Below, in pieces: positions 6,612 through 59,617 of a stretch of DNA of 64,000 nt (positions within the stretch are counted from its first letter, which is position 1; every line of letters starts with the position of its first letter). Source of the stretch: Alloascoidea hylecoeti (Eukaryota); the NCBI GenBank assembly GCA_001600815.1, contig BCKZ01000002.1, forward strand, positions 1-64,000. The letters run 5' to 3'. The translations under genes and the position numbers were made by a program. Under the pieces are notes generated by a model that saw only the letters and a program-made list of their open reading frames with translations, was not told where the DNA came from and ran no database searches.

Positions 6612-6711
6612 NNNNNNNNNNNNNNNNNNNNNNNNNNNNNNNNNNNNNNNNNNNNNNNNNNNNNNNNNNNNNNNNNNNNNNNNNNNNNNNNNNNNNNNNN
6701 NNNNNNNNNNN
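6612..6711. other. Scaffold gap (100 N)
   Basis: Run of 100 N. Confidence 0.99.
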
Positions 6712-10272: not shown

Positions 10273-10312
10273 TGTTATAGCACATTGTTTAATGTTATAG
10301 CACATTGTTTAA
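10273..10312. repeat. Perfect 20-bp tandem duplication upstream of CNA1
   Basis: (TGTTATAGCACATTGTTTAA)x2. Confidence 0.9.
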
Positions 10313-10486
10313 CTAAAGAGAAAATATTAATAGCGATCTAGAGGGATATTTTCTTCGTCCTCATCCGCATTCCTAATAAAAAAAATAGAAAAACCCGTAT
10401 ATGAGATTATTATAAATAACACCCATACTTCCCCTGAATCATCGTTATTGCTGACATTTCGTTTATTACACAAACCATCGATATCC

Positions 10487-12330: not shown

Positions 12331-12536
12331 AGCTTAAATAATTATATAATTAATTGACTTATAACATGTTCTGTTTCTTGATACTACTTTAAATTTAGTT
12401 TTATGTTCAATGCGAAAGGCACAATTAGCTATCATATACACCTATATATTATAATACACTTTCTTTTTATACATACAAGTATATTAATACCATGAAATCC
12501 TTCAAACAAGATTTATGTTCAGTTTTTTTGCACCTG

Positions 12537-12570
12537 TTACCCGGCCATTGCTAGTAGTTTGAGTGGCAAT
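12537..12570 (+). promoter_or_regulatory. Reb1-type site (TTACCCGG) and Rpn4/PACE-like element (AGTGGCAAT) in the PRE10 promoter
   Basis: TTACCCGG at 12537-12544; AGTGGCAAT at 12562-12570, close to PACE GGTGGCAAA, about 40 bp before a proteasome gene ATG. Confidence 0.55.
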
Positions 12571-12608
12571 ATCACCTCTTTACTTCATTACTTAAAAGCA
12601 GTTTAGAG

Positions 12609-13640: not shown

Positions 13641-13942
13641 TTAATGTGTTAAATATAAAAATAAAAGAAATCCATACATTAAGAAATAATTATAAAAAGT
13701 ACACAACCCGTAGATTCTTCATCTATATATCGTTACACATGAGTCCATAAAACCAAACAGATTAAAGCAAAGAAAAAAAAAAATTCAAACGAACAAATAA
13801 AGAAATAATATAACAAACAAAAAAACAAGCAAGCAAACACATACTGTGTCATAATATTATATATAATTCATAGCCCATATTGTAGTTCCAAGATTAATGA
13901 TATACTCTTTCTGTTAATTTGTTGATTATATGATTAGTGATT

Positions 13943-16900
13943 TCAATTGTTTTCGTGCATATCGATATACGCATCTATTTTACTAGAAATAAATTGAAAG
14001 GTGGAACTTGATAGTTGATATCTTTCACTATCTGAAGCATTGACATCCAAACTATCCAATAGTTTAATGTTTGATTTTACGAAATTCATTTCTTCTGNAT
14101 CAACAAACCTATCCAGTTTCGAGGCAAAATCTTCAAATAAATTAACAATACTTTTTTGTTGAATGTGTAATCGGTTGGTTTGGTCCATATCTAGACTAAG
14201 CGATCCACTAACAGTTCTTCGTGATAATTGATCTATCTTCCCTTCTAATGAACGAATTGTTAGATTCCGTTGATCAAGTGACACTCTTAAATTATTATTT
14301 TCGGCAAATAGTTGTTGTTGTTGCGTTAATGATCTCTGTAAATCCTCTTCAATCATCATCATGTCTATGTTATTTAAATTTCCAGGATTATTGTCATTAA
14401 TTTGTGCAAAATACTCTTCGAATTCTTGTACCTTATTCCGTTCTTGTTGTAAAGCTTTTGTAGTGTGTAACAATTCCCCCTCAACAGAATTTTTCTGCTG
14501 TCTAACAAATTCAAGTTTTTCTGTTAATATATCAACCTTTTCAGCTCTATCAGATCCAAATCTCTTTAGCTCTTCAACAACCTGTTGACTATCAGCAAGA
14601 AGTGTTTTTAAGTCAGACAATTCAGTTTGTATATCTTTCATTTTCTCAATATCTTTAACTTGCTTCTCCAAATCATTTCTTATGTTTTCTTCNTTCTCTA
14701 ATTTAACTTTTAATTTTTTAATATCAACAATATATTGTTTTTCAATTTCGGAATGCTGATCTTTTAATTTTTTAATTTCAAAATCAATATGATTTATCCC
14801 TTTATCATTTGAATTATCTTTTAATATTAATTCATTTTCTAATTGTAAGTCTTTTAATCTTAGTTTCAATGATTTGATTTCATCATTTAAATTATTTTCT
14901 TTTTTTTCTTTTTCAATTAAAGACTGTTGTAATTTTTCTTGTTCTTTGAATAATTTATAAGCTCGTTGCTTTTCTTTATCCAGTAAATCGATTACTTCTT
15001 TTAATTTGCTACTTTCATCTGTTCTCATTAATCTCAAATTTTCAAGTTCATGTTGTAATGATTCAAGTTGTTCTGTTTCATCCTCATTTGAAGAATAAGT
15101 GCTTGTACTGTCATATCCTTCATCATAATTTACACTTTCATTATATTTTAAATGATTTTGATTTTCGCTTCGAATTTGAATTTGATCATTTTGTTTTTCA
15201 GTTATGTATGATGTTTCTAAATCAATAACTCTATCACCAAGTTCTTTTAGATCCCCTAGTAGTAGTAGATAATCATCTCTTTTCGAAGCAATTGACAGTT
15301 TTATCCATTGCAATCTATCATTTTGATCCCCACTTAATAAATTATTAATATTATTATCAAGTACCGATTCTGAATTCCATGTAAATAATAAATCAACTAT
15401 AATATCAATTAAATCGTTTGTAATACCATTTGTTGCTTTGGTATCATCAATAATGACACATTGATATCTAATTGTATCACTTAATTTATCTAATTCACAT
15501 ACCAGATTGTCAACTTTATTCTTCTCCATCGTTAAAGAACTTTTAAGTTTATTGATTTCATCCTTCGATATATTTTCAAAATCTGAAGATGGAGATTTCA
15601 TAGTTGAACCACCAATAGTAGTTTTAATATTACTTAGTCTTGAAACAAAGTTATCTTTTAGTTCTGAATCGTTTTCGCCGATTTCTTCTAAAGCTTCTCG
15701 TAAAATCGATTCCATTAATTTCCATTGAATTTGAAATCCATAAATTTTTTGGTTTAATTCTTTAATTTTTGATGATTCACCAACACTAAAACTTGTAGTT
15801 GGTAGGTCTTTAATTTGATTCCAGTTTTCCAGTGTGGAGGTATTACCACTTTTTAATGACATTCGTCTTAACGATTTATTGAAAGTGTGGGTTGTTTGTT
15901 TCCATCTGGGAGGTGTTGTTTCCGGTTCTGGAAGATCAGGCTTCAACTGAACATTGTCGATATCAAGTTGTGCTCCTGATTTTGTATCCTCAATATCTAT
16001 TTTTGAAGGTGTTATTGTCGGAGTCTTACGGGGTGGTGGTATGGCCAGGGAGCGTTTACTGCTATTAGAAGTAAACCTATTCGAAATTCTATGACCCGAC
16101 TTTTGACGTGCTGATGTTGGAGTCGGAGTTGGGGATGGAGAAGGAGGAGATATAGATCGATTCNAAATATTCGGCAGTATTCGCAATGACTTCTTATCAA
16201 AGGATTTAGTTTTTCTGTTTTTTTCAAGTGAATCGGGAGTACTTGAACCTATTGGAGGTGATGACTTCATTTCTCCTTGTAAATAATTTTTGGGAGAGTT
16301 TGATGTTGATGATACTTTTACTTTTGAATTTGTTCTGCTATTAATAGGTGTTTGAATTAAGGAATCCGACTGTTCAAGAATATTTGAAGGATTTTTTCCA
16401 GTTTGATTTTTCCCATTTTGTGTATCGGAAGTTGAAAATGAAGAGTTGTTGAGTGACTCTGATCTACTTAGCATATTCTTATCTCTATATTGTCCGGTAG
16501 ATTCAAACATACTAGTATTATTTTTATCATTTAGCTTCGAGGAATAAGTGAAAATATCCGGACTTGAACTGACCTCTTTATTCTCATGATTTGTTTTATT
16601 TATTTGTGTTTCGCTTACAATCTCATTTGATGTTGTTGAAATGGGATCATTAGAGTTATTATAAATAGCACTAACATCTTTGTTCGCGTTCATTGGATTT
16701 TTTGGGTTTTTTGATATTGAACCCGAGGAAATATCTGAATCTATTCCGTCATCATCCGAGTCAAAGGAAGAATTCACCAAACTTAAGGAATTAAAGCTTC
16801 CTTGCCGCGAATATGGGGTTTCTTGAATATTAATACCATTACCGTTACCAATCGGGGTAGTACGAAAAGTACTATTAGCTTTTCTCAGCATCTCCTCGAT

Positions 16901-16996
16901 TAGATTTCTTTTAGGTCTATAAGTTGGATTTTCATTAGGTTCAACATGCCTAGATGTTTTGGAGTCTATCCTGGTTTCACTTTCTATTGTCGTCAT
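13943..16996 (-). CDS. Long coiled-coil protein with a disordered Ser/Pro-rich N-terminus; possible Spc72/Mto1-like gamma-tubulin complex receptor
   Basis: 1017-aa ORF with a heptad-rich C-terminal half; segment ESSKIKELNQKIYGFQIQWKLMESIL loosely resembles a CM1 motif. The CDS is secure, the function tentative. Confidence 0.7.
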   Translation of the reverse strand: MTTIESETRIDSKTSRHVEPNENPTYRPKRNLIEEMLRKANSTFRTTPIGNGNGINIQETPYSRQGSFNSLSLVNSSFDSDDDGIDSDISSGSISKNPKNPMNANKDVSAIYNNSNDPISTTSNEIVSETQINKTNHENKEVSSSPDIFTYSSKLNDKNNTSMFESTGQYRDKNMLSRSESLNNSSFSTSDTQNGKNQTGKNPSNILEQSDSLIQTPINSRTNSKVKVSSTSNSPKNYLQGEMKSSPPIGSSTPDSLEKNRKTKSFDKKSLRILPNIXNRSISPPSPSPTPTPTSARQKSGHRISNRFTSNSSKRSLAIPPPRKTPTITPSKIDIEDTKSGAQLDIDNVQLKPDLPEPETTPPRWKQTTHTFNKSLRRMSLKSGNTSTLENWNQIKDLPTTSFSVGESSKIKELNQKIYGFQIQWKLMESILREALEEIGENDSELKDNFVSRLSNIKTTIGGSTMKSPSSDFENISKDEINKLKSSLTMEKNKVDNLVCELDKLSDTIRYQCVIIDDTKATNGITNDLIDIIVDLLFTWNSESVLDNNINNLLSGDQNDRLQWIKLSIASKRDDYLLLLGDLKELGDRVIDLETSYITEKQNDQIQIRSENQNHLKYNESVNYDEGYDSTSTYSSNEDETEQLESLQHELENLRLMRTDESSKLKEVIDLLDKEKQRAYKLFKEQEKLQQSLIEKEKKENNLNDEIKSLKLRLKDLQLENELILKDNSNDKGINHIDFEIKKLKDQHSEIEKQYIVDIKKLKVKLEXEENIRNDLEKQVKDIEKMKDIQTELSDLKTLLADSQQVVEELKRFGSDRAEKVDILTEKLEFVRQQKNSVEGELLHTTKALQQERNKVQEFEEYFAQINDNNPGNLNNIDMMMIEEDLQRSLTQQQQLFAENNNLRVSLDQRNLTIRSLEGKIDQLSRRTVSGSLSLDMDQTNRLHIQQKSIVNLFEDFASKLDRFVDXEEMNFVKSNIKLLDSLDVNASDSERYQLSSSTFQFISSKIDAYIDMHENN

Positions 16997-17230
16997 GTCT
17001 TAAGTTTTCTTCCAACTCCAATTGTACACTACCGCGGTAACAAGTCAGGCAAGTATATTTGAAAGCCTTCTTATAGACTTTCTATTTTAAAGGCGTATAA
17101 AGAATTATATTCTTTTTGTAGCGAAGAAAAACAAACAGATCACGAAGGTTTGTTTTGAAAAATTAGTAGATCAGAAGTAACTAACTAATTATATGGCAGG
17201 AATATAATCTGGCTTTGTGAGTTAATTGGA

Positions 17231-17238
17231 TTACCCGG
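17231..17238 (+). promoter_or_regulatory. Reb1-type site
   Basis: TTACCCGG about 235 bp upstream of the coiled-coil gene ATG. Confidence 0.45.
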
Positions 17239-17527
17239 GCATCACCGTTACATGATGAAATCGGGTTAATATTATATTATAGGTTTTAATATTTCAGTCG
17301 GAGATACTTAATTCTATTTATCATTATCTTTTATTCTTTCAATTTCCATTATATTGTATCTGTATAGTTACTATAAGTTAATGTAATATCGATATCAGTT
17401 ACATACATGACCTAATTAAATTGTAGTTTTATCAAATTAAAGTGCAGTCATCTAATTATAATGTTCTAAATCAAAACATGTTCAAGTTCATAGTTATAAG
17501 ATACGACTTCCACTGAAGCACACTTAT

Positions 17528-17730
17528 TTTGAAGACATTTGGAAAAATCTTACAAAGAAGATATTTAACTACAAAATAGAATATTCAACAAGAATACTTA
17601 AAATTTCGGTTACGGCAATATTGGAAGCTTTAGAGAAAGAGGAAACGAGTCTAATCATAATAAGAGAGTTCCTGGAGAATCCGGTGTGAGAAAAGCTGTA
17701 AGTGCGTATAAAGTCTGGACTCTGGAGACA
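17528..17730 (+). mobile_element. Possible Tc1-like transposase C-terminal relic
   Basis: FEDIWKNLTKKIF...LKISVTAILEAL resembles the region after the Tc1 catalytic Glu (IE.IW..LK.K); weak match. Confidence 0.3.
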
Positions 17731-18014
17731 GATTATCAGTAGGAAATATTAGCCACCCACAAAACACAAATACTTCGTCTGGATACTCACGAGAATTATT
17801 CTCCGAAGATTGCTGAAAATTCAGTGGAGATAAAGTATATTTGTCTGATTGAAATTGATATATATGTGTTTATATAGAAAACTGTAAAATTAAGTAATGA
17901 ATATGGTTCAATGGTGTTGATATATCATATTGATAGATCTAGAATAGGTAGTAATATCTAGATTTTAGTTATTTAAAGAAATTCAAAAAATTCAATGTTT
18001 AGAAAGAAATGCTT

Positions 18015-19391
18015 TTAGAAAGAAAATAATCCACCTGCTAAGGCCCCACCAATCATAAGTGTTAACATAACACCGTTAGCCTTGGTATCAAATTCATAAA
18101 AGAATGGAGTTCTCAATGCACCAGCAACACCTTTACTTTTTGAATGAGTAGCGGAGGAAGATGAACCGGAACTTGAGCTTCCAGAAGAAGAAGAGGACGG
18201 AGAAGCCGAAGAAGAACTTTCATCATCAGGTCCCATATCCTGAGTAGAAGCCCCGTCATTACCTTTTGGCTTTCCAGCTCCATCCTTCATATAAGTTTCA
18301 GCATCTTCAGGCAAAGTTGGCAAATCATCAGTGGCTACCCAATTATCGCTGAGTGTTGGACATTCTATAGAGCTTACAGTTGCTTTACTCCCGCCATCTC
18401 CAGTTGGGTTTTTAGTTGAGTTGTATTCGCCCTGCAAGTTATAAAAGTCATCTTGTTTAAGGACCGAATCTTCCGAAGTAATATTGACCAAACCATAATT
18501 GTTGGGCTCCTCTGAATATTCATAAACTAGCCCACCCGAGAAAACAGAAGACATTTGGGTAGAATAAATAGTTCCAATTTCAGTAAAAGGTCTACTTCCA
18601 GGTACTTCATTACATCCGAATTCACTTAAGAAAATAGGAGCTGGAATATTCTCATACATGTCAACTTTTTCGCGATATCCACTCACAAGAAAAGAGGATT
18701 TCCCACACCATGAATAGTCATTGATACCAATAAAGTCCGATTTAGCACTTGAGTCATTACCGCATGTGAAATACTGGGCCGCTTGCAATCTATTCTGAGA
18801 AACATCAGCAGCACTATAACCAACTGGGATTTCACGGTATGACCTTGCTTTAATATAATTTTTCATATCTCTAACAACAGCTTTAACATAGGGAGCTGTA
18901 TTAGTAGTATTTTCATTGTTAATTACTTCATTTCCAGCAAAAAATCCCAAGACGTTATCATAATTAGCAAATGCATCAATGGTTGCAAATACATGTTGTA
19001 AGTATGGAGCATTATAAGATCTAGCTGGTCTAAGACGACTAATCGAATTTTTTGGGGTGTTTACGTCAAGAATGAGATAAATCCCAGCATCTGCCAACTT
19101 CTTCATGCAAGCATCATGATTCAAAGAATTATCAACACTGTAAGCTCTAATTGTGTTCAAACCAAGATCTGTGAAAATAGGAACATCTCTTTCACAGATT
19201 GATTCAATAGCAAGAGAGTCTGTCAAGTTTCCTGATCCACCCGGTTGATAGTCGACACCTCTTATGTAAAATCTTTCTCCGGACTTAGAATCCCAGAATG
19301 CATTACCTTTCACTTCAATAGGGGAAATGTCGGCGATGACAGATGATACCAACCCTATTAGAAAAGACTTCCAGAAAGATGAAAGCATCAT
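18015..19391 (-). CDS. GAS5: GH72 1,3-beta-glucanosyltransferase without X8 domain, GPI-anchored
   Basis: RFYIRGVDYQPGGS, GFFAGNEV and FLSEFGCN motifs; Ser-rich stalk; hydrophobic GPI tail. First ATG (MMLSS) at 19391. Confidence 0.9.
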   Translation of the reverse strand: MMLSSFWKSFLIGLVSSVIADISPIEVKGNAFWDSKSGERFYIRGVDYQPGGSGNLTDSLAIESICERDVPIFTDLGLNTIRAYSVDNSLNHDACMKKLADAGIYLILDVNTPKNSISRLRPARSYNAPYLQHVFATIDAFANYDNVLGFFAGNEVINNENTTNTAPYVKAVVRDMKNYIKARSYREIPVGYSAADVSQNRLQAAQYFTCGNDSSAKSDFIGINDYSWCGKSSFLVSGYREKVDMYENIPAPIFLSEFGCNEVPGSRPFTEIGTIYSTQMSSVFSGGLVYEYSEEPNNYGLVNITSEDSVLKQDDFYNLQGEYNSTKNPTGDGGSKATVSSIECPTLSDNWVATDDLPTLPEDAETYMKDGAGKPKGNDGASTQDMGPDDESSSSASPSSSSSGSSSSGSSSSATHSKSKGVAGALRTPFFYEFDTKANGVMLTLMIGGALAGGLFSF

Positions 19392-19881
19392 GATTGACCA
19401 GATTATAAATAAGTGATAAGATAAGAAGATTAAATTATAATATATTATGATTTGTATGTTCAACCAAGAATTTCAGTTGAGAAACGAGTGTCAATTGTAA
19501 TAAAGATGGAGTGGAGAAGAAGAGAGTATGCTATGGAAAATTTATGCTTAAATGTAAGCGCGCTCGTATTTATTTTTCCAGAAAAGAAAGTTTAAGGTTG
19601 ATACTCGGGCAGATGCTCACACTGCAGCTCCTGCATTTTGATCGTTTGACCCATACTAGACAAACAGTTACGAATGTTATACGAGTGCCCATACGTATAT
19701 TTAAAACTTACTACATACGGTATTAATGATATNAAATTGATAATTATACCAATTATAAGATATTCTATCATAAAAAACAAAAATTCAAATGTTTCGAATT
19801 CAGTTGAGGTACCTCAAATTTTAGGTTCTAGCTACTTAAAGGAACTTTAAAACTCTAATGCCAGTTACGTCATCCAAAAAC

Positions 19882-32726: not shown

Positions 32727-33350
32727 CAGCCGAGTCAGATTAAACGGATTCATCGGACACCACTCCAAGGCCCAGCCTAAGAACCTATTTAAACAAACAT
32801 GTATATGTAATATTCTAGGCACCTAAAGGACCTTTTCAAAATGAGAAGAATCAAAGAACATGGTGTTATGGTCTAAAGATATATTAGAGTGGTCTCAGAA
32901 GGTTTGTGGTACATTTCTGGGATCCGGAAAAGTATAGGCTCGAATTAATTATTGAACCTTAAAATGTTTAATCCAGTTATTCCATTTAATTTTGACCATT
33001 TCTTGGACACATGATGCATTAATGTTCAAAATTAAGTGGAACAACTGTAATATAAAGAAGCCTGGGTCTGTAATTATTTTGGTATGGAGGTCGTATTAAG
33101 TGTTTTTGTCGTAGAGAGCTGTTTATGACATTAAGGGCGCCAACACTTAAAAAGCTTAAGGCATCATTTTCTATAGACTAGTATAGATCCTCTAGAATTT
33201 GCGTAACATTATACACTATTTTAAGAACATTTAAGGCTTATATATAATTATTAGAGTACTCAATAGTTCTAATTGGCTGACGTTATAATCTTGCCATTTT
33301 ATGGAGTGGTGACCCGAACAAGAAGCGTAAGTTTAATCTTGACCCGGTCG
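32727..33350 (+). mobile_element. Internally deleted Tc1/mariner-type element (624 bp), TA-flanked
   Basis: TA|CAGCCGAGTCA-GATTAAAC versus reverse-complemented right end TA|CGACCGGGTCAAGATTAAAC; internal RAVYDIKGANT* resembles the Tc1 C-terminal AVI.AKGG.T motif. Confidence 0.65.
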
Positions 33351-49087: not shown

Positions 49088-50187
49088 CACTTAGAAATAA
49101 GTTCAATTTAGATAACCTCAGTTGTTGAATGAAAAGTTGAGAAGTATTCCTTCTGCTTTTAGTAATCGAAAGATATGAACAATGAAATAAGAAAACAAAT
49201 AAATATCTGATGAGAAGCTTCAATGAAATAAAAAATTTAAATTGCGATTTTTAAGCAAATTGAGGTTCTTATATACTCACGCTAAAATGATTGAAAAATG
49301 AACTTGAAACTTTCTAGCGAAATGTATGATTAAACTTATAGTCATGTTGAATCCATATTTGGCCTATAAATAATCAGCTAAAATTATAAGCTTTGTATTA
49401 TTCTATATATATATATTTATTTATAACTAGTATATATAATGCTCATGATCAGATACAATATTGCAATATACATTACGATTAAGTCCATTGATTTCGGCGT
49501 TCCATTCATATAGGCCCATACATATATAAATTTATATATATATAATTATAATTGCAAGCTTGAATTTACGATCGTAGAGAACGGCCGGAATATTAAATAC
49601 AGTAAAATTATTAAAACCTTATTTTCATATTCCAAGTATCACTAGTTAACGTTGTACATTTATATATATATTAATATTATTCATTGCTCTATTATTTATA
49701 TATATGCCTAAATTTAACTATATCCTAATATTAATGCTGCAGCGTTATATGTTATCGCATATATAAAAGTTTTTGCGGTTTTTCGAATTTCCGGTTGCTC
49801 TTTACTTAAATGAAATTTAAACACTAACCTCAATATATATGTATCCTTTGCTCATTTCATCCAAAAGTTAATAGAACAAAAATTATAATTATAGCCAAAC
49901 CACACTTAACTTATATAATAGCAAGAAACCTCCATCGGTATTAAAGCTCAAATATATTCAAATATTATGCTATAATATTGCAATATTTATAATTATAAAT
50001 GTACGTAGGGCGAAAATATAGGCATCATAAGAAAGAGATCAAAACTTGAAATTTATAATCAGTCTTCATTCATTACAACGCTCTCAGTAATACGACAAGC
50101 AGAGCCTCGACTTATGTTTGACTCGTAGTTTCAATGATCAACTTTTATCCACTGCTATATTGCATATGCATTTTCATATACCTCGTA

Positions 50188-50589
50188 CTGGTGGGTATCA
50201 TATTATCGCGTTTTTATATATCTACCTATAAATATATATTTAAAATTTAATTATCATTCACTTGAAATTGTATTAAAACTCCTAATATATGTATTTACCT
50301 ATACTTAGTTGAAGTTTCATCTTATATATATTTGCATTCCTAACCTCAAATACAGTTAATAGTTAGCTATACTTATAATTATAATTATATCTTGTAATAA
50401 ATTATAGAATAAATCTTATTAGTATTGTTATAAAACACTTCTAGAAATCCTACTTAATATTTAATTTATAAAATCTTATTATACAAATAGGGTGGAAGTA
50501 GGTGAACTTTACCATATACAATTTATTTATGATTAAAAGGCCAATTCTCAAGAAAATATTACTAATTAAAATACTCTAGATCCCACCAG
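50188..50589. mobile_element. Candidate TA-flanked MITE (402 bp, very AT-rich interior)
   Basis: TA|CTGGTGGGTATC ... GATCCCACCAG|TA; short TIR. Confidence 0.45.
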
Positions 50590-50699
50590 TATGCGGTGAG
50601 TGAGTCAACCAAAAGTGTTTGACTTAGTTGATCCCTTAACCGGCAATACTTTTGAAAGATGTATCTTGACCTTCTAGACACCACTCATTATAGCTAACT

Positions 50700-52360
50700 C
50701 AGAATGCTTGTTTCCTGGATCAATTTCAAGCTTGTGCTACACGGGTTTCAATCTGATCTAAGTCTGGAGAGCTAGCAGATCAACACACCTGGTCCATTGG
50801 ATTCTCATCCTACTGATTTATGGACTGTAGAAGTATCCCCAATATCATTTTCAAAGGCTTGAGTAAAAGGTGTTGCGACCTGTTATAATATCGCTTTGAT
50901 GCAGCTCTGAATTAGTCTTTCTCTCAAACTTCTCCATAACGACAAATATCGTGTGTTTTTCGGACGTTTTTGTAATTATCTTATTAGACCCCTGCCATCT
51001 TCTGATGGCTTTGACTTTCCAGTTGGTTTTGTACTCTACACTGCCAGTGGCTTTATTAAAAAACGGTTCCAGCGTGGGTATTACTTGCTCCGACCAATAA
51101 ATGAGATACTGCTGTAGTTAGCCAAGTCGTTCAAAATATTTTGAATGGTCGAAATGATTAAGGTTTCGATGCATATGTGTATAAAGTTTACCAAGAGGTT
51201 AACAATTTTTCAATGTTGTATCCTAATATTATTACTGATGTCCCCCTATAATTATAAAATTGTATATTTAAAGTTGGAATATCCACTTAGTTAAAGCTCA
51301 AATATATTAATATAGTCATATACATATATATATGGTGCGCTCTACTGAAGATGAACAACTTTTTTCTTGTGTGAAATTTTGATCGCCAGGAATATCTCCA
51401 AAAATAAATCGCTTTTTATATACAGTCACTGAATACTCTATAAGCTTTAAACAGTTCTTAAAATATTACATAATGTTCTGTAAATAGTAGAGATTATATT
51501 AGTAGATATAAATTGAAATTGTAAGTTTAATACTTCGTGTTGTAATAGAGACAATCAGATTATCAACAATACGCTGGACACCTCTATCTCCTTTCCACAA
51601 AACAAATTCATCTTGATATTAGCCCTATGGATAGTTATGATTTTCTTCTTGAATATGAGACACTCGAAAATCTCATCAAAAGCCTCTTCCAGAAGCTGTA
51701 TATAGGAATGTGTGGTAAATGGAGTTAAGGGTGGAAATAGCAAATACTAAAATTTCAATGTCGTTTATGGCTCCGTTTTTTCTGCAATTAGGATCCCCAA
51801 CTACTCTATATAGTAAATTACGGCTTCCTTTCCACATTTAAACATATGCCGTGAGACTCACAGAGTCAGAATTCCCTATAATATGAATAGTTTTTGATTC
51901 AAAGGCTTGGCGTGGCTGTTGTGAACCAGATACTTTTCCAGATCCGGATTCTGTCTAAATATTCATTACCAAAGGCAACACCATCCCAAATGTCATGAGG
52001 CACCTCAATATATATGCAGATAATGTCATTCTATTAATTAAGTTATTCTCGTTTAGATAAGACTATTCATATTCCAAAACTATTCTATATTCTTGTTTTT
52101 ACATTAGGGTTCTTAGGTGGTCTTCTATATTCCAATGCTGAACTTTAATGCCTGTTCCTCATACGTATCCAGGGGGAAATATTTTATAACTCTCAGAATG
52201 TGATTATTTAATATATCAGTTAGTTATGTAGGCTTTCTAATCCCAGGAAATATTATTATCTAGAAGAGTTGTTGGAGTATTTATTTTCGATGAACCAAAC
52301 AGTTGAAATACTAAGCCTTCTGCTTATTTCAGCAAGTAAAAATTCATTTTTACTCATATT
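50700..52360 (-). mobile_element. Heavily decayed Tc1-family transposase
   Basis: Collinear minus-strand fragments: AEISRRLSISTVWFIENKY (HTH-like, about 52330), WDGVAFGNE (W..V.FSDE-like, about 51985) and *SASSPDLDQIE (WP..SPDLNPIE-like, about 50765). May be one interrupted element or two. Confidence 0.6.
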
Positions 52361-53101
52361 CTAAATTTGAATTTCCTTAGTTAGTTAAAAAATCTTCTCA
52401 AATTTATAATTATGTGAAATCTACCTTAGCAAATTCTATGTATATTTGAAAAAGAAGGTTGTTTTATTAGAGGTGTCAGAAAAGGTTATGCTTTTTTATT
52501 TACGCGATAGTACATGCCACTGTAATTACCCTATGAGGAAATATATCAGTTTGAAAATCCATACACTCACTTAGATAAGTTAAGAAATAGCTCTAGGGAC
52601 AATAATTTAGACAAAGTGCAATAATTAATTTAAATGACAAGATTTAGATTTGCCATTTATCTACTCTTTCGTCCTTAATATATAAGTGAAGTGATTTTGG
52701 CGTTGTGGTCACTGCGGGAGCGTTTTTTAAAATTTGATATGCATATGCATATTCCTAAAAAAAAAAACAATTGTAAGTGTATAATTATAATTTTCGATTT
52801 TAAGTTTTGGACAAATTGAGCGATGGATACACGACGAGGAACCGAAATTCTCCAAGAAGTACCACAAATCAGAGATTATAAAATATGACATCTTTCTGTA
52901 GCAGCACACTTCTGCGGCACTCTCTCAATAGAAATTGGGATCCGGACGTTCGTTACGATATGAACGATGATCTAGCACGGTTGGCAGAGGACGATGTCTT
53001 TGTATCTCCTTTATTCTGAGAGATTGCCCAGCTCATATCAGATCAAAATGTTCCAACCAGGACCTCGCAAGGAGTATGATTATGTGATTTCAGATAAACA
53101 G

Positions 53102-53149
53102 TCCAGAACTATCGATATCATTGCTATTATTAACTAAGAAATAAATATG
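53102..53149 (+). repeat. Left arm of a perfect 48-bp inverted repeat
   Basis: TCCAGAACTATCGATATCATTGCTATTATTAACTAAGAAATAAATATG is the exact reverse complement of 55955-56002. Confidence 0.97.
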
Positions 53150-53529
53150 TACCTAAGGAATAACTTATTGAGTATTAAATACACAAAGTGATACAATACT
53201 AACTTACACAGATAATATATTAAATATAAATTATTGTGTGTGACATCAACTCTGGTTAATCACAACAATGGACAGCCGGTTGCAATACTGAGTTCGGTAT
53301 GCGAAAAATACAGTATGGGCACATTGAAATCTGCCCTGCTAAAATACCCATTTTAGCAGCATCCATTCTGACACATTCATGGTAGTGTTTTACAGGAATT
53401 ATTTTGGCATACGAGATAAATTATGAATTAGAATAAATGTAGTATAAAATTGTATTAATCGACTATTCTCAATTTCATTATCACCCTCTATCTCATGGGT
53501 ACAGTCGTAACGTGGTGTATTTAACATCG

Positions 53530-55866
53530 TCATCCCCCATTCTCATTCTGATCATTATTCAAATGATTATAATCATCAGGGTATTTTCTAATCATATCAA
53601 CGGACATTTCAAAATAACCTTTTACAGGATTAAATTTTTTAAAATAAATTCCAATATTATTAAATTTTGATGATTTTCCTAACAAATTTAAAGTTTCTGG
53701 ACTTTTTAAATTATTCAAATTAATTTAAATTTGATTCTGAAGCATAAATAAATTTATTTTCATATATTAATTCATAATAAATTTCAGGTTTGGATATGTT
53801 TAGATTAATATAGCTGGCACTATAAGTATGATCGAAGAGTCTTCGAGCAAGTTGATCATGAGATCCTAGTGTTCGAATACTCCATAATAATACAATACCA
53901 GTATTTCTACCATGTTTTAAAACTTGTCCGACATAATATTTTGGTTTTATATCGATGGGTAATTGTGATAAATAATCTCTTTTTCTTTTATTGATATAAT
54001 TTAATGTTTTAAAAAATAAATGTGTTTTTGGATATATTGAATTTAAAGGAGCATGTATTAAACGTTTTAAAACTTTTCTGATATAATATTTTGGTTTTAT
54101 ATCGATGGATAATTGTGATAAAGAATATCTTCTTTTTTCATGAATATGACTTAATGTTTTAAAAAATAAATGTTTTCTTGGATATATTGAATTTAAAGGA
54201 GCATTTATTAAACGTTCCAAAACTTTTGAAGATTCAGGAAATGCTTCACATAGATGGTCTGTTAACATGAGTAATTCTGCTGTATAATTTGAAACATTTA
54301 AGGGTAAGAAAGAACCTTCATTATAATCAACCCCATTAAACCGTCGAGCATAATCATAATCAAAAAAAATTTCAAAAGTAAAATTCATATTAACATTATG
54401 ATTAATAATATCATCATCATTATTATTGTTAACACTAATATCTCTATTATATTTATGAATTACTAATTTTGTCATTAATAATTCAAGCATAACATTATTT
54501 CTATGTTGTATTCTAGACACTAATAATACGATTATCTTCTACTAAGATTTCAAAATCCATTTGGTGTAATAAAATCTTCATGAATTGAAAAATTGATATT
54601 AATTCGATATATTTTCTTTTAAATGATATTGCTAATTCATGTAATCTTCTTTTTAATTGATGTATTGTATATGATTTAAAACCAAATCCACCAAACTCAC
54701 AATAAACATAATTATCGTCAATTGAATCATCATGTTCATCCTCAATGTTTAGATCATTGTTATTATTGAAAATTAAATTAATTCCTTGTGTTGGATTCTT
54801 TAAGCATGATGCTTGTGTTGAATTTCTTTTTATTACTGGAACCAATGTTAAAGCCAGTTGTCGATACTAATTATATTCCTAGATCAGTTATTATTTTTTA
54901 AAAAAAGATTGTAATACATATACTTACAAGTAATAATTCATAATGTCTTTGATCAAAGCAACTGAATGCAAAAACAGCATCTTCAACATCTAAATCATTA
55001 TTTGTTTTATGATTAATAGAATGTGAAGATGGTTTCTCCTTATATTTTGGAGTTGTTAACAGTCCATTAAATATTTCAATAGCATAATTATGACGTATCA
55101 TTCTTAATAATTTTTCTGAATATGATATTTTTGATAAATTGGTTAATCTGTAAAAATCATCATCCTTTGTGTCAATTAGATTTTTATCATTAATCTGATA
55201 AAATTTATAACTGATTCTTGATGTTTCGGTTGAATCTAAATCTCGAACTAAATAATGGTTACTATCAATAGATGATAGATCAATAGATGATGTATCAATA
55301 TTTTTAAATGAAGGAGATGATGATAATATTGCTTGTAAGAAATGATGATTAGTTTTATAATTACAAATATCCATTAATTTTGGAATTAAGTTTTTATTAT
55401 ATTTTGAATATAATCGTTGTAATGTTTAATATCTTGTTGTTGAATGAATAATAACGTTGTTTAATCTATCCACCAGTTTTGAATCTATTAAAGATCGGGA
55501 TTTATATTCTTCTCTAAAATTTCTTATGTGTGATGAAGAATTTCGAATAAAGTTGATAGTATTTGGATCGATAAAATTATCCCATCTAAAGAAGAGTTAT
55601 AACTTTTCGTTAGAATTAAGAAATACAATTTTAACAAAATATAAATTTAAAAGATATATATACTTTTGTAAATATAGTGGTTTCCATAGTTTATTATCAT
55701 AGGCTACCTCGTGGAACGAGTGTGAAACCAGTGATAATTTAGTTAATGTTTTGAGGTCATTAACTTGCGATAATATATTAAGTAATATTTCGTCGGGTAG
55801 GAGCTCTCATCATGTTTGTGAAATATATTTCATTAGGATGGGAATGCAGGATTAATTACCATCCAT
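53530..55866 (-). pseudogene. Disabled F-box protein gene with C-terminal YccV/HspQ-like domain (Mfb1/FBXO21-like)
   Basis: F-box LLPDEILLNILSQV..LSLVSHSF....DNKLWK (about 55800-55670); introns 55586-55663 and 54879-54927; YccV-like KYYVGQVLKH..GIVLLW..YY..YASESNL..IGIYFKKF..YPDD. In-frame TAA at 55426-55428, TAG at 54867-54869, frameshifts near 54515 and 53719. The start at 55866 assumes a weak extra intron (55806-55859). Confidence 0.8.
53913..54227. repeat. 150-bp (50-codon) tandem duplication inside the F-box pseudogene
   Basis: TTGGTTTTATATCGATGG.TAATTGTGATA occurs at 53941 and 54091; protein repeat KVL.RLI.APLNSIYP..HLFFKTL...IDIKPKYY twice. Confidence 0.93.
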
Positions 55867-55954
55867 ATATACCTAAAAAAAATAAAACTGACCTATTTGG
55901 AACACGCATAAAAAAAGCAATTAAAAGCAAATTTTAAAGGATAAATTATAGAAG

Positions 55955-56002
55955 CATATTTATTTCTTAGTTAATAATAGCAATGATATCGATAGTTCTG
56001 GA
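55955..56002 (-). repeat. Right arm of the perfect 48-bp inverted repeat
   Basis: Exact reverse complement of 53102-53149. Confidence 0.97.
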
Positions 56003-56093
56003 GCAAGAAAGCTCCTTTCATTCAATTGAACATTATCAATACTTAACTGGAAAGAATATTTATCCTGTTAAACTCAGAGGTTTTGAGACAGAA

Positions 56094-56335
56094 ATTGATA
56101 CAGTGGATGCTAAACCTATAGCTCTACAACCGTACCTCCCACTCCTCTAATTCGTGAGAAGGTAGCCAAAGTAATTGATCCAACTGCTAGATGGGCTGCG
56201 CCAACATTTGCTGTCCCAAAAAAGGATAGTGATGATGTGAGAGTGGTCGATGTTTGCCGCCGTTTGAATAAATGTACTACTCCAGTAACGTTTGGATTTC
56301 CTTCAATTGATTCTATTTATGAGGAGCTTGCAAAC
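56094..56335 (+). mobile_element. Ty3/gypsy reverse transcriptase N-terminal fragment
   Basis: IDTVDAKPIALQPY /frameshift/ ...RWAAPTFAVPKKDSDDVRVVDVCRRLNKCTTPVTFGFPSIDSIYEELA. Confidence 0.85.
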
Positions 56336-56339
56336 GTAT

Positions 56340-57898
56340 AACCAGATAAAAGATCGAATGTATTTATTCTTGTTGGAAGTTTCTAATAGAGGTCCAGTAA
56401 AATCAATTGAGATAATATCGGAGACATTCTCTTTAATTTCATCTTCATCAACAAATTGGATTTCACGTTGAAAATTAAAGTTGACTTTTCGTTGTTTTTG
56501 TTTTACCTCGTCCCTAGCCACCTTCTGCTACTTCTAGTATCTGAGGCATGTACGCCTTTCAAGATTATCCATTCCAAAAAACTTACAGGGACTGTGAGTA
56601 CTCTTTCCATTTTTTTCCATTGGTGCCGTTATAAACTTCCTTTTTCTGGTAGTCGTGATTGTTATCGTGAGGCTTTGATTTGTAATTGCTATTACTGTTA
56701 TTGATAAAAATTAAAATCTAAATCGTTTTTCAATTCTTTGGAAGTTTAAAATTCTGAATTATACTTGTATTTAAAATTTTCTTGTAACAAGCGATTGTAT
56801 ATTTCGTGAAGCGTTACGGAAGGTTGTTGGATCCCATAGTTAACACCATGAACTCTTTTTGTGCCGGTTTCCAACCTAGACAACAAAAGCATCCTTATGG
56901 AATGATTGGGTAATAATTCCGCCGGAAGTGATCTTTGCAAAATTCTAAAACGAGTAATGAGTTCTTGGATTGTATCAAACTTCTCAGGATTCAGTGTAAC
57001 AAGATTTAAAAACAATGAAGCGTATGCAAACAGCAAATTATTATTTCCCAATAAAAAGGGGAAAGCATCAACAAAACTTGGTTTACCTATCGTTTCCACC
57101 ATTAACGTTCGCCACATGCTTTTCATTTCAGAAGGAATATACGCAATGCAAAAGATCATTTGGAATAGGTCAAACCAGAGGCCTTGAAATAGTTTTCTAT
57201 TTCCATTAATTTAGAAATTCTATCAGTGCCCTCCATTTTAAAACTTTAGGTGGGATCGAACTTGGGTGGAATTAGCACAGTATCGTACCCGTTTAATTCA
57301 ATTGGATGTTGAATTATTCCCGGCCATAAGGCGACGAGTTCTCATGACTTTTGACGCTGCCCACTGAGGTAGGATTATCTTATCTAGGTCCGAATTGCCA
57401 TTCCTGGAAAATAGACCAGGTGAGTCTCTGGTTTTAGGGGCCCTCGTTGAAATCTGATTTTGGATTTTACTTCAAAACCCTTACGAACTTTATTTATGTT
57501 ATCCCTTTTTGATTTGGGTGCGTGCTTGGGACCAGATTCCTCAACATTTGATTCCTCATAATCGGGTTCATCATCTCTTTCAATCAGATCTGTCGTTGCT
57601 GTATCTGGAGGAATATTTGGGCTTTCCTGTAACTTGATGTCACCAGTTAGTTTTGTATTCTTGGGTGCTATTGTTAATTTAATGAAACTCTCCCAATCAG
57701 TAATAGTTAAGATGTTATTGTTCTGGTTGTTTTAATATTTCCGGTAAGAATGGAGATCTCGAAGATGTCAGATTCGTTGAAGGAATATAGATAGAATTGG
57801 TGTATAACAGCTTAGAATAATTTATAACGAAATAGAAAACAACAGTAGTTACTCAAACAAATATCCTTTCGGTAAAGTTGTGGTTTAGGACCAGTTAT
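56340..57898 (-). mobile_element. Degenerate LTR-retrotransposon interior: gag-like region, decayed zinc knuckle and integrase core fragment
   Basis: ORF 56746-57159 is gag-like; CKFFGMDNLERRTC (about 56590-56545) is a degenerate CX2CX4HX4C; DIISIDFTGPLLETSNKNKYI (about 56425-56360) is an rve integrase motif. Confidence 0.7.
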
Positions 57899-58079
57899 TG
57901 TTATGAAAACAATGTTGTAATCTTAAAATAATTGTTTGTGAATAAATATTAAATAAAATAAATAGTAATATTTAGTAGTGTAGAAAAGATTTTAAAGATA
58001 TATAGAAGTAGTAGAATGTAATAGAATGCATTAGTATTAAAGCTTATATCACGTGCATATATATAATACTGTAGTAACA
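57899..58079 (-). mobile_element. Putative 5' LTR (181 bp) of the minus-strand retroelement
   Basis: TGTTA...TAACA inverted termini; lies directly upstream of the gag-like region; followed on the minus strand by ATAACTGGTCC. Confidence 0.6.
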
Positions 58080-58114
58080 CGATTCGTAATTTGTACTATT
58101 ATAAATTTAGACTA

Positions 58115-58815
58115 CAGTCAGTGGCCTAGGAATCGGCCATGCTAACCTACCTGGATTTGAGCAAATCTGGCCAAGAAATGCTGTGATTTTTGACTTTAAG
58201 TATGTAAATCGTCTTACTATATAGGCCGGCCAACCTTCCTCCAAGGCCAGATTCCGAGACATTTTGTATGTAGAAAAATAAGAAAAATATTTATTAATGT
58301 TCAGGTGTTCAATATTTTTTGTCTTTTCAATACATATTAGCGAATGGTTTCAAAGATGATGTTCGAAAATATTGAAATTATTTGAAGTTTTCTATGGGTT
58401 TATTAAGAATACGTAGGAAAAGCGAAATTAGCATCCACCAACTTCAAATCAGTTTCAATTGCTTCGTCAATTATGTTTCTAACCATTCTCTTGAGCATAC
58501 ACGTTCTACACTCAAGTTTATTTAAGCTTGTAATTGAATTACATAAATGTTACCGATAAATTGTTTTTGCAATAACATACCATCAACTCAAACGCCTTCA
58601 TATAAGTTATAAGTTATATATATAAAATTGAAGATTTATTTGTAGAAAGCTACCGTAATACTGTTCGTTCTTTATTTAGTTGCAATATACCCCAAAGTAG
58701 TTCAATTACGTAAGCTAATAAACTAAGATTGCATAATATCTTATGTAACCGTGACCACCCTGCGCCGAGGTTTTGAAAGTTTGCCGACCAGGACCGAATC
58801 CTAGGCCACCGCCGG
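58115..58815. mobile_element. Tc1/mariner-type non-autonomous element (701 bp), TA-flanked
   Basis: TA|CAGTCAGTGGCCTAGGAATCGGCCATG versus reverse-complemented right end TA|CCGGCGGTGGCCTAGGATTCGGTCCTG (21/27 identical). Confidence 0.75.
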
Positions 58816-59617
58816 TATACTAAGTTGTATCATAGCGATTTTCGTATGCATATATGCATGACATTCTCGTGACTTCACACTGTGCTCTTGCCTATAGTTT
58901 CAGTAATATGTTCCGGGAAAGAAGCGTATCATAGAGCCGAAGAAACATCGGTGCACAAATCTAAAGAAGTCAGGCCAATGGTATAATAGTAATTAGTTCC
59001 TATTTTTTATGTATATGTGTCAATATATTCATATGAAGTTGACGTATGTTCAAGCCAAGCTATTTGTTGATAATTATTACTATTGTGTAATTTGTTTTTA
59101 AAATAACTGAATGGGGACAATTTATTACAATTTGTTGATCGAACACTTGAATTGTATCAGCATTTTTTACTTAGTATCCAATTGCGCCATTACTTTTTGA
59201 AATGGCACTTGCAATTTTATATGATTGATGTTGTCATTGACGTTAAAAGTTGATACATCTTGTTCTGCATTAATACATGGCGTTATTTTCACTCGAGGAT
59301 ACTATTTCCTTTTTGGGACAAATGTAGAAACAATTGTCGTTAACGAGTTATGATTAAGTAATAATTGTAGCAATATAGAAATACAGATACAACATTAACA
59401 CAACAAATGCTTTATTATCTTGAATAAGCTATATCTACCACGGTATAAACTTCTTGATAGCCGATACTTATAATTGAAAATGGGAAATAAATTAGTATTT
59501 AAAGAAGTACAATTCTCTATTTTAATATATCATCAATAAAATAAAAAACTACTTGTTTTAACAATTTTATTACTTCAATTAACAAATAAATTTAGACGAT
59601 TTATCAATTATCAAAAA

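What the first reader, a model, noticed from the sequence alone, without database searches (positions are those of the whole stretch)
53102..56002. 2.9-kb cassette bounded by a perfect 48-bp inverted repeat, carrying an F-box/YccV gene and no transposase
Seen: 53102-53149 and 55955-56002 are 48/48 identical in inverted orientation and bracket one intron-containing host-type gene; the right arm is about 90 bp upstream of its probable start. The outer flanks (...GATAAACAG | GCAAGAAAG...) show no TSD, and the termini do not look like the TA-CAGT or hAT ends found elsewhere in the window. The other long TIR pairs here are visibly diverged and the enclosed gene has at least four lesions, yet these arms are identical. 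Inference: (a) a gene-capturing non-autonomous TIR element (Pack-MULE-like) that moved recently, (b) an invertible segment whose arms are homogenised by recombination, possibly site-specific (the arm holds overlapping palindromes TATCGATA and GATATC), or (c) a template-switch scar.
Basis: partly seen in the sequence, partly recalled or inferred. Interest (0 to 1): 0.85.

Follow-up and report, generated by a model that had tools for sequence, protein, structure and literature searches.

The report
Single 48-bp inverted duplication scar
A decayed F-box gene in a yeast-like fungus is bracketed by two identical 48-base sequences in opposite orientation, which looks like the scar of one DNA break-and-repair event in a junk-rich region, not a mobile or switchable cassette.

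Summary
The repeat is real. Arms 53102-53149 and 55955-56002 are 48/48 complementary and form the only inverted pair of 40 nt or more in the window. In the probable source runs, the k=31 contigs start exactly 30 nt inside each arm, so the assembler did not invent the repeat.

The arms end sharply. There is no target-site duplication of 2-12 bp and no similarity beyond the arms. No transposase or recombinase was found in or around the cassette.

The cargo is a multiply broken F-box pseudogene of a nearly orphan family. The YccV label has no support. The setting is a 10.4-kb gene-free, repeat-rich stretch of an AT-rich ascomycete yeast.

The best reading (about 0.5) is a one-off repair scar: a small inversion with a 48-nt staggered break that was filled in, or a templated patch. 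Perfect identity over 48 nt needs no homogenisation, because P(no change) is 0.62-0.87 at the strain divergence seen here.

A TIR element, a flip-flop segment and an assembly chimera among paralogs remain possible but less likely. The copy number of the 48-mer in the whole genome, and the orientation of the segment, could not be tested. Interest is low.

The parts
53102..53149 (+). Left arm of the 48-nt perfect inverted repeat. GC is 25%: the outer 23 nt are 39% GC and the inner 25 nt are 12% GC.
   Evidence: In X1 and X2 a Logan contig starts at 53120, 30 nt before the inner end of the arm.
55955..56002 (-). Right arm, the reverse complement of the left arm. It lies 141 nt upstream of the pseudogene's ATG.
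   Evidence: In X1 and X2 a contig starts at 55973, 30 nt before the outer end of the arm. In X4 one contig (record 21) spans 55398-57356 across the arm.
53150..55954 (.). The 2805-nt segment between the arms, 25.5% GC. Window bin 54001-56000 has the lowest GC of all 32 bins (0.242).
53530..55813 (-). F-box family pseudogene. The ATG ATG at 55813-55808 is one base out of frame with the F-box exon, with TGA just upstream in frame. Intron 1 is 55586-55663. There is an in-frame TAA at 55426-55428. Intron 2 is 54879-54927, followed by an in-frame TAG at 54867-54869. There is a frame change at about 54515-54540 and a further frame change near 53720.
   Evidence: ORF list. Pfam F-box-like E 1.7e-13. 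Frames and splice sites read. P0001 reads through the 54.5-kb frame change.
53914..54213 (.). Tandem duplication of 150 nt (two copies, 89% alike, in frame) inside the pseudogene. It is absent from a paralogous contig.
   Evidence: Joint 'skips 146' in the 712-nt paralog contigs of all 4 runs.
56003..56341 (+). Right flank: a decayed fragment resembling the N-terminal part of a retroelement reverse transcriptase. It is frame-shifted, and one frame stays open 11 codons into the right arm.
   Evidence: phmmer against the PDB gave 185 distinct chains at E up to 10, and the 60 shown are all reverse transcriptases. The best are HIV-1 RT residues 46-85 (E 0.035) and Ty3 RT 4ol8 residues 97-145 (E 0.1). 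The match is weak and below Pfam detection.
52902..53101 (.). Left flank, 44.5% GC, with no recognisable gene. Contigs of all four runs end at 52961.
   Evidence: The HORMA hit (E 0.0027, 17.6 bits against a cut-off of 24) is below threshold, one of 85 ORFs scanned.
49100..59500 (.). Context: a 10.4-kb stretch with no intact gene, between a Gpr1/Fun34/YaaH gene and a GST gene. It holds multi-copy segments and other diverged inverted pairs.
   Evidence: (depth 2-4 times the flanks at 51304-52839 and 53224-55527).

Best explanation
The two arms are a single, locus-specific inverted duplication left by one break-and-repair event in a decaying, repeat-rich, gene-free stretch.

The mechanism I commit to is a small inversion of about 2.85 kb. 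One breakpoint was cut with nicks staggered by 48 nt. The overhangs were filled in and the ends rejoined without homology. This copies the 48 nt between the nicks to both ends of the inverted segment, in opposite orientation.

A close variant of the same class is a 48-nt patch copied from the opposite strand 2.8 kb away during repair synthesis (a template switch).

On either variant the cassette is not mobile, encodes nothing that acts on the arms, and has no function. The F-box pseudogene is a bystander.

Shown: the repeat, its sharp ends, the absence of a TSD, the absence of a transposase or recombinase, and the broken cargo. Inferred: that an inversion or template switch happened, and that the 48-mer is confined to this locus.
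For: 1. The arms are exact and end abruptly on all four sides. In-register identity is 1/10 and 3/20 outside, and 3/10 and 8/20 inside. The 8 flank alignments give z from -1.10 to 0.95. So this is a duplicated unique 48-mer, not the conserved core of a longer old repeat.

2. There is no TSD at 2-12 bp (0 of 11 lengths).

3. No transposase, integrase or recombinase domain passes a Pfam cut-off in 7 cassette ORFs or in 85 ORFs around it.

4. All four junction types are implied by the source reads. Contigs of X1 and X2 start exactly 30 nt inside each arm. Logan contigs are k=31 with every 31-mer used once (passages).

5. In isolate X4 one contig runs 55398-57356 through the right arm without a branch. 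A multi-copy terminus with other well-covered contexts would break it.

6. There is a precedent. Inversions in Drosophila carry inverted duplications of unique sequence at their breakpoints in 17 of 29 cases. Often only one breakpoint is duplicated, and the shortest duplication is 46 bp. These are explained by staggered breaks, fill-in and end joining (PMC1885836, passages read).

7. Identity needs no homogenisation. P(48 nt unchanged) is 0.87, 0.79 and 0.62 at 0.3, 0.5 and 1% divergence. X3/X4 differ from the window at 31 listed sites in 11.5 kb, which is a lower bound, and at 18 sites in 1.9 kb next to the arm.

8. The setting is a junkyard: a retroelement RT fragment, multi-copy segments and other decayed inverted pairs.
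Against: No un-inverted ancestral arrangement was seen in any strain or relative, so the inversion itself is inferred, not shown.

The copy number of the 48-mer in the rest of the genome is unknown. No genome is held. Logan does not report contigs of 150 nt or less, so depth says nothing about the arms.

The X4 contig joins interior, right arm and right flank. Under either inversion geometry X4 therefore already carries the derived state. Yet the left-arm junctions did not branch that contig. This means low coverage (k-mer depth about 7-9), a secondary loss, or a non-inversion origin (a templated copy).

Staggered-break inversions are documented in flies. I did not find a yeast example in the one search I ran.

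The interior passes through paralogous repeats. The assembled linkage of the two arms on one 2.9-kb unit was not checked by spanning reads.
Confidence: 0.5

Rival explanations
1. It is a non-autonomous cut-and-paste DNA transposon (cargo-carrying, Pack-MULE-like). The 48-bp arms are its terminal inverted repeats, mobilised in trans by a transposase encoded elsewhere.
For: The 48-bp terminal inverted repeats are perfect and have a sharp inner boundary. The region holds other TIR-like remnants, for example 58104-58141 / 58789-58826. The cargo belongs to a multi-copy family with paralogs at 85% identity or more elsewhere in the genome. The genome-wide count of the 48-mer could not be done.
Against: There is no TSD at any length from 2 to 12 bp, although the arms are perfect. 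A recent insertion should have both.

The termini do not match the other inverted pairs of the window.

Paralog similarity at 85% or more stops near 53305 and 55527. That leaves about 155 and 430 nt of locus-specific sequence inside the arms, so the arms are not the ends of the repeated unit.

The X4 contig passes the right arm unbranched.

The outer 26 nt of the arm have 0 matches in the JGI metagenome contigs. No transposase was found in the window.
Confidence: 0.15
2. It is an invertible segment. The arms recombine, either by homology or through a site-specific recombinase. The segment then exists in both orientations, and the arms are kept identical by conversion.
For: Any perfect inverted repeat can support inversion. 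From memory, about 40-50 bp of homology is enough for recombination in budding yeasts. The arm lies 141 nt upstream of the gene's start, and it contains an 8-bp and a 6-bp palindrome. Contigs at k=31 cannot tell the two orientations apart.
Against: No recombinase is found in the cassette or within about 4 kb on either side. The arm has no pair of 11-13-bp binding sites around a spacer (read). The cargo is a pseudogene with at least four lesions, so there is nothing to switch. Identity over 48 nt needs no conversion. Spontaneous exchange between 48-bp repeats should be very rare (general knowledge, not tested).
Confidence: 0.08
3. It is an assembly artefact of linkage. Both copies of the 48-mer exist, but the 2.8 kb between them was stitched through paralogous F-box copies. 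The two arms may then not bracket one contiguous segment, or the segment's orientation may be wrong.
For: The interior crosses segments with 2-4 times the flank depth. In X1 and X2 the exact contigs break at 54046, 54660, 55345 and 55973.

Protein P0001 matches 53759-54767 at 97-98% and carries two X3/X4 variants, so it appears to come from an independent NCBI assembly of a strain of the X3/X4 type. It continues upstream with 48 residues that are nowhere in the window. The X3 and X4 contigs carrying those variants end at about 54768.

The window has 38 single N and one 100-N gap elsewhere, so it is a draft.
Against: X1 contig 5 (54660-55345, 0 differences) runs straight through 54768, so the window's join there is backed by its own reads. 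Paralogs are only about 90% alike, so their exact shared words are short and ordinary read pairs should resolve them. There is no N within 30 kb of the cassette. The junctions of both arms are in the reads.
Confidence: 0.12

Closest known systems
Inverted duplications at inversion breakpoints (staggered-break model; Ranz et al. 2007, PMC1885836, passages read)
   Same: Unique sequence is duplicated in inverted orientation at the two ends of a segment. There is no TSD and no repeat family is involved. Often only one breakpoint is duplicated, and the shortest reported case is 46 bp.
   Different: Those cases are large inversions in Drosophila, inferred from comparison between species. Here the segment is only 2.85 kb, the organism is a yeast-like fungus, and no ancestral arrangement was available, so the inversion itself is not shown.
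Non-autonomous TIR transposons with captured host genes (Pack-MULEs and the like)
   Same: Terminal inverted repeats bracket a host-type, intron-containing gene fragment, and there is no transposase.
   Different: There is no TSD (MULEs make 9-10 bp, recalled). The arms are 48 bp where MULE termini are typically longer (recalled). No second copy was seen, and the paralog unit ends inside the arms.
Inverted-repeat and retroelement-cluster centromeres of budding yeasts (Hession et al. 2025, PMC12711049; abstract, sections 13 and 14 and passages read)
   Same: It lies in an unusually long intergenic region with retroelement debris, with sequences shared at high identity with other loci, and with an inverted pair of 100% identity around an AT-rich middle.
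   Different: The inverted repeats that paper describes in Barnettozyma are 0.5-4.3 kb, not 48 bp. The RT fragment here resembles retroviral/Ty3-type RT rather than Ty5. There are no Hi-C, Cse4 or one-per-chromosome data.
FLP/FRT-type or Hin/Gin-type invertible segments
   Same: A segment is bracketed by short identical inverted sites. From memory, the full FRT site is also 48 bp.
   Different: There is no recombinase gene and no dyad-plus-spacer architecture in the arm. The content is a dead gene.

Membership tests
Cut-and-paste TIR DNA transposon (non-autonomous, cargo-carrying) | Terminal inverted repeats at both ends | tested here: met
   The arms are 48/48 nt.
Cut-and-paste TIR DNA transposon (non-autonomous, cargo-carrying) | Target-site duplication directly outside the TIRs (2-10 bp depending on superfamily; lengths recalled) | tested here: not met
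   0 of 11 lengths (2-12 bp) are identical. The 9-mers match at 5 of 9 positions only.
Cut-and-paste TIR DNA transposon (non-autonomous, cargo-carrying) | Further copies, or an autonomous partner, sharing the termini | tested here: inconclusive
   There are none in the window and none in the metagenome contigs. The X4 contig is unbranched through the arm. The whole genome is not held.
Site-specific invertible segment | Recombinase gene in or beside the segment | tested here: not met
   Pfam finds only an F-box in the cassette. Nothing passes a cut-off among 85 flanking ORFs.
Site-specific invertible segment | Both orientations present in a population | not testable with these tools
   Only k=31 contigs were available. 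The two orientations share all words shorter than the arm.
Inversion with breakpoint duplication (staggered breaks) | Inverted duplicate of otherwise unique sequence at the two ends of the segment, with no TSD | tested here: met
Inversion with breakpoint duplication (staggered breaks) | Relatives carry the segment in the opposite orientation with a single copy of the duplicated piece | not testable with these tools
   No relative's locus could be fetched. X4 shows the same right-hand junctions as the window.
F-box / YccV-like (FBXO21-type) proteins | F-box domain | tested here: met
   PF12937 at E 1.7e-13 and PF00646 at E 8.2e-07.
F-box / YccV-like (FBXO21-type) proteins | YccV-like (hemimethylated DNA-binding) domain | tested here: not met
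   No Pfam family at E up to 10 for P0001 or for the three C-terminal ORFs. The PDB sequence search found 0. The structure model is unusable (pLDDT 31.8).
Inverted-repeat centromere of budding yeasts | Inverted pair of 99-100% identity, 0.5-4.3 kb long (the Barnettozyma range in that paper), in a long intergenic region | tested here: not met
   Identity and the long intergenic region fit. Length fails: 48 bp, against the sizes given in PMC12711049 section 14.
Inverted-repeat centromere of budding yeasts | One such region per chromosome, Cse4 binding or a Hi-C peak | not testable with these tools
   No genome and no chromatin data are available.

The most novel reading that the evidence does not exclude
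The 10.4-kb gene-free, retroelement-littered stretch (49.1-59.5 kb) is this chromosome's centromere. The cassette is then its AT-richest core (25.5% GC) between perfect inverted arms. That would be an unusually small, nascent or vestigial inverted-repeat centromere, of a kind not yet described.

The hints are these. The region is the longest interval without an intact gene in the window. It shares segments at 85% identity or more with 2-4 other loci. It borders a Gpr1/Fun34/YaaH gene; from memory, the Saccharomyces cerevisiae members ATO2 and ADY2 lie a few genes from CEN14 and CEN3.

Nothing here tests centromere function.
Probability: 0.05. Interest if true: 0.65.

Novelty: new member of a known kind. 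Interest (0 to 1): 0.2.

Why it matters
If the best reading is right, this is an ordinary structural scar. It has minor value as a clean, young example of a breakpoint duplication in a yeast. It also shows that short perfect inverted repeats around a gene need not be mobile or switchable.

It would matter more in two cases. One is that the 48-mer turns out to recur with other cargo, which would make it a TSD-less gene-carrying element in a yeast. The other is that the surrounding gene desert proves to be a centromere with a minimal inverted-repeat core.

Tried and rejected
Whole-genome search. No genome is held for this window.

Metagenome contigs. The outer 26 nt of the arm gave 0 matches. 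For P0001, 132 pattern matches were found but none was confirmed as a relative.

Earlier findings of this scan. Nothing by place or by two sequences.

Homologues of the cargo.
- The 272-aa ORF against longer proteins gave none of 7933 candidates.
- The 175-aa ORF gave none of 518 candidates.
- The Atlas gave no usable hit.
- The scan of 1.84 billion representatives gave 2 hits only, P0001 and P0002.

Testing the YccV fold.
- Pfam at E up to 10 found nothing for P0001 or the ORFs. P0002 had three sub-threshold chance-level hits.
- PDB phmmer found 0.
- AlphaFold2 of P0001 without an alignment gave pLDDT 31.8 and pTM 0.18. It was not searched further.

Retroelement context.
- The integrase-like ORF 56306-56527(-) and the ORF 55971-56147(+) had no PDB match.
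- The gag-like ORF 56749-57210(-) had no homologue among 213 candidates.
- My reading of these as integrase and gag therefore rests on eye only and is dropped.

RNA genes. There are no tRNA genes and no Rfam match at E up to 0.1 in 49-60 kb.

Vector contamination. The arm against 72,556 plasmid records gave 4 weak partial matches. None covers 80% or more of the arm, and the best E is 0.2.

Coverage holes. In X4 the bin 52840-53223 has depth 2.67, against 16.6 and 9.0 in the bins beside it, and no listed X4 contig lies on 52962-53223. I first read this as absence of the left arm in that isolate. Logan drops contigs of 150 nt or less and words seen once, and the tool warns that holes prove nothing. 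It is therefore not used as evidence.

Depth over the arms was also rejected as a measure of their copy number, for the same reason.

The joint 51910 to 56999 ('skips 5088', shorter side 27 nt, all 4 runs) is too short a match to interpret.

Extended homology beyond the arms, as expected for an old long inverted repeat with a converted core, was rejected.

The left flank is not the upstream continuation of the RT fragment, as a simple insertion into a retroelement would require. No protease-like or RT-like frame was seen.
Full report
THE OBSERVATION

The window holds a perfect inverted repeat. Position 53102-53149 on the plus strand equals 55955-56002 on the minus strand, 48 of 48 nt, with 2805 nt between them. 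With up to three mismatches allowed the 48-mer occurs at these two places only. None of 100 dinucleotide-preserving shuffles of the window gave two matches.

It is the only inverted pair of 40 nt or more in the 64 kb. When the minimum is lowered to 24 nt, 28 pairs are found (25 shown). The next pairs are 50 nt at 70%, 42 nt at 74% (low-complexity) and 38 nt at 76%.

The repeat ends abruptly. Just outside the arms 1 of 10 and 3 of 20 positions agree in register. Just inside, 3 of 10 and 8 of 20 agree. Eight gapped flank comparisons against shuffles gave z between -1.10 and 0.95. No direct repeat of 2 to 12 bp abuts the arms (0 of 11 lengths).

IS IT AN ASSEMBLY ARTEFACT?

No genome is held for the window, so I used public runs. 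Four of the ten runs listed hold the locus. X1 and X2 are one sample and the probable source. X3 is a wood-decay metagenome. X4 is another sample labelled as the same organism. All are available only as Logan contigs.

Logan contigs are built at k=31. Words seen once are discarded, every 31-mer is used once, and only contigs longer than 150 nt are reported (PMC12424806, passages read).

In X1 and X2 an exact contig starts at 53120 and another at 55973. These points are 30 nt, which is k-1, before the inner end of the left arm and before the outer end of the right arm. This is what a true 48-nt repeat produces in such a graph. The repeat and its boundaries are therefore in the reads and were not made by the assembler.

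What these contigs cannot show is the orientation of the middle segment. They also cannot show that both arms sit on one molecule as drawn, because the interior passes through paralogous sequence.

In X4 a single 1979-nt contig lies on 55398-57356, with 14 substitutions and 15 gap positions, and so runs through the right arm and both its junctions. This confirms the right arm in an independent isolate. It also shows that, in that run's simplified graph, the arm has no second well-covered context.

THE CARGO

On the minus strand lies a gene with an F-box (PF12937 E 1.7e-13, PF00646 E 8.2e-07; exon 55597-55806). It has two short introns with plausible GT...AG ends, at 55586-55663 and 54879-54927. 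Splicing the first one joins the frames correctly (read).

The gene is broken in several places:
- The ATG ATG at 55813-55808 is one base out of frame with the F-box exon, and TGA precedes that exon in frame.
- There is an in-frame TAA at 55426-55428.
- There is an in-frame TAG at 54867-54869, three codons into the third exon.
- The frame changes near 54515-54540, and again near 53720.

A 150-nt tandem duplication (53914-54213, 89% identity) also sits in the coding part.

The 'YccV' label does not hold. Neither the ORFs nor the longer relative P0001 match any Pfam family, even at E up to 10. A PDB sequence search gives nothing. A structure model without an alignment is unusable (pLDDT 31.8).

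Apart from its F-box, the family is nearly orphan. A scan of 1.84 billion representative proteins with the 272-aa ORF found two proteins only.
- P0001 (387 aa, from an NCBI record, on a 9885-nt contig) matches 53759-54767 at 97-98%, including the tandem duplication.
- It carries two amino-acid changes that correspond to variants seen only in X3 and X4 (54634 and 54661).
- It reads through the frame change at 54.5 kb.
- It starts with 48 residues that are nowhere in the window.
- The X3 and X4 contigs with those variants end at about 54768.
- The X1 contig 54660-55345 runs straight through that point.

So the strains, or their assemblies, differ inside the cassette.

Depth and clipped contigs show paralogs at 85% identity or more over roughly 53305-55527, at 2-4 times the flank depth. 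One 712-nt paralog contig lacks the tandem duplication. That repeated unit ends about 155 nt and 430 nt inside the arms.

THE SURROUNDINGS

Pfam on 58 ORFs of 80 aa or more shows a compact ascomycete-yeast gene set: chitin synthase, GH72 glucanosyltransferase, SUN, Zds_C, Aim21, Brr6-like, SRP19 and others. Overall GC is 33%.

Between a Gpr1/Fun34/YaaH gene (ending at 49090) and a GST gene (from 59540) lie 10.4 kb without an intact gene. None of 85 ORFs of 35 aa or more there passes a Pfam cut-off. There is no tRNA gene and no Rfam family.

Directly right of the right arm, a frame-shifted ORF (56114-56338) finds reverse transcriptases and nothing else among the 60 best PDB chains shown, of 185 matched at E up to 10. 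The best are HIV-1 RT residues 46-85 at E 0.035 and Ty3 RT residues 97-145 at E 0.1. This is a weak match, but a specific one, to the N-terminal part of a retroviral/Ty3-type RT.

The stretch also holds multi-copy segments (51304-52839). A diverged inverted copy of part of it lies at 32776-33249. There are two decayed inverted pairs as well. The left flank is not the upstream continuation of the RT fragment, so the cassette is not a clean insertion into one retroelement.

HOW IT MOST LIKELY AROSE

A duplicated unique 48-mer in inverted orientation, with sharp ends, no TSD and no enzyme gene, is the signature of a single repair event.

The simplest such event is an inversion in which one breakpoint was cut with nicks 48 nt apart. 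The overhangs were filled in and the ends were joined without homology. This leaves the 48 nt at both ends of the inverted segment.

That model was proposed for 17 of 29 Drosophila inversions. Many of them duplicate only one breakpoint, and the shortest duplication is 46 bp (PMC1885836, passages read).

A variant of the same class is a 48-nt patch copied from the other strand during repair synthesis. I cannot tell the two apart. The X4 contig shows that X4 has the same right-hand junctions as the window, so X4 is not an un-inverted ancestor under either geometry. Whether X4 has the left arm is open.

I put this class of explanation at about 0.5.

This does not hold up quantitatively.
- The chance that 48 nt stay unchanged is 0.87, 0.79 and 0.62 at 0.3, 0.5 and 1% divergence.
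- X3/X4 differ from the window at 31 listed sites in 11.5 kb. That is a lower bound, because 174 rows were not shown. They differ at 18 sites in the 1.9 kb from 55615 to 57493.
- The gene's lesions may be older than the duplication.

RIVALS

A cargo-carrying TIR element (0.15).
- Perfect arms without a perfect TSD speak against it, as does the absence of a second copy anywhere I could look.
- The paralog unit stops inside the arms, and the X4 contig is unbranched.
- Its key prediction, recurrence of the 48-mer in the genome, remains untested.

A recombining invertible segment (0.08).
- It has no recombinase, no recognisable core site, and a dead gene as content.
- Rare homologous flipping between the arms is possible but was not looked at.

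An assembly chimera through the paralogs (0.12).
- The independent assembly behind P0001 disagrees with the window upstream of 54767.
- Against it, the window's own reads support that join at k=31.

THE MOST NOVEL READING NOT EXCLUDED

Budding-yeast centromeres sit in unusually long intergenic regions. Depending on the lineage, they consist of retroelement clusters shared between chromosomes at over 90% identity, or of inverted repeats. In the Barnettozyma species those repeats are 0.5-4.3 kb long with 99-100% identity (PMC12711049; abstract, sections 13 and 14 and passages read).

The 10.4-kb desert here has retroelement debris and sequences shared with a few other loci. The cassette is its AT-richest part; bin 54001-56000 has the lowest GC of the window. 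From memory, the S. cerevisiae relatives of the bordering Fun34-family gene lie a few genes from CEN14 and CEN3.

A 48-bp repeat is far below any described centromeric inverted repeat, and nothing here tests centromere function. I give this reading 0.05.

VERDICT

The feature is real and well defined. It is most likely an ordinary one-off structural scar around a pseudogene in a junk-rich region. The genome-wide copy number of the 48-mer, spanning reads and a sister-species comparison would settle the question.

Noticed in passing
window 49100-59500: This is the longest stretch of the window without an intact gene (10.4 kb). It lies between a Gpr1/Fun34/YaaH gene and a GST gene. It holds retroelement debris and segments present at 2-4 times the flank depth. 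It could be a retroelement-cluster type centromere or another heterochromatic island.
   Followed up: partly
window 58104-58141 and 58789-58826: An inverted pair of 38 nt at 76% identity encloses about 650 nt. Its ends begin TACAGT-like, so it looks like a decayed Tc1/mariner-type miniature element.
   Followed up: no
window 49965-50014 and 50363-50412: An inverted pair of 50 nt at 70% identity, 348 nt apart. A contig in all four runs joins 49954 to 51447 on opposite strands. That suggests another copy of this repeat elsewhere, in a different arrangement.
   Followed up: no
window 51304-52839 and 32776-33249: A multi-copy segment (depth up to about 4 times the flanks in all four runs) has a diverged inverted relative at 32776-33249 (76% over 87 nt and 65% over 133 nt). 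No protein family was recognised. One contig joins 55115 of the F-box pseudogene back to 51503. The two repeats therefore also lie side by side at another locus.
   Followed up: partly
window 54768 (inside the pseudogene): X3 and X4 contigs end here, and protein P0001 from an independent NCBI record continues with 48 residues that are absent from the window. The source strain's contig runs through. This is either a strain difference (paralog exchange) or an assembly chimera in one of the two assemblies.
   Followed up: partly
window 52961: Contigs of all four runs coming from the left end at exactly this base, 140 nt before the left arm. That implies a graph branch (a short repeat or a variant) shared by all samples. 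The cause was not found.
   Followed up: no
window 53723-54538 (-), P0001, P0002: Apart from its F-box, the F-box gene family is nearly orphan. Only 2 proteins among 1.84 billion representatives match its C-terminal 272 aa, and neither has any Pfam family above cut-off.
   Followed up: yes
window 346-19733 and 62854; gap at 6612-6711: There are 38 isolated N and one 100-N gap. 37 of the isolated N lie in the first 20 kb. The window therefore comes from a draft scaffold with ambiguous base calls. None lies within 30 kb of the cassette on the left, and the nearest on the right is at 62854.
   Followed up: no
window 12636-13637: A proteasome subunit gene is split over three ORFs (Pfam Proteasome positions 3-50, 49-130 and 132-188). 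This shows that the organism has short introns in housekeeping genes.
   Followed up: no
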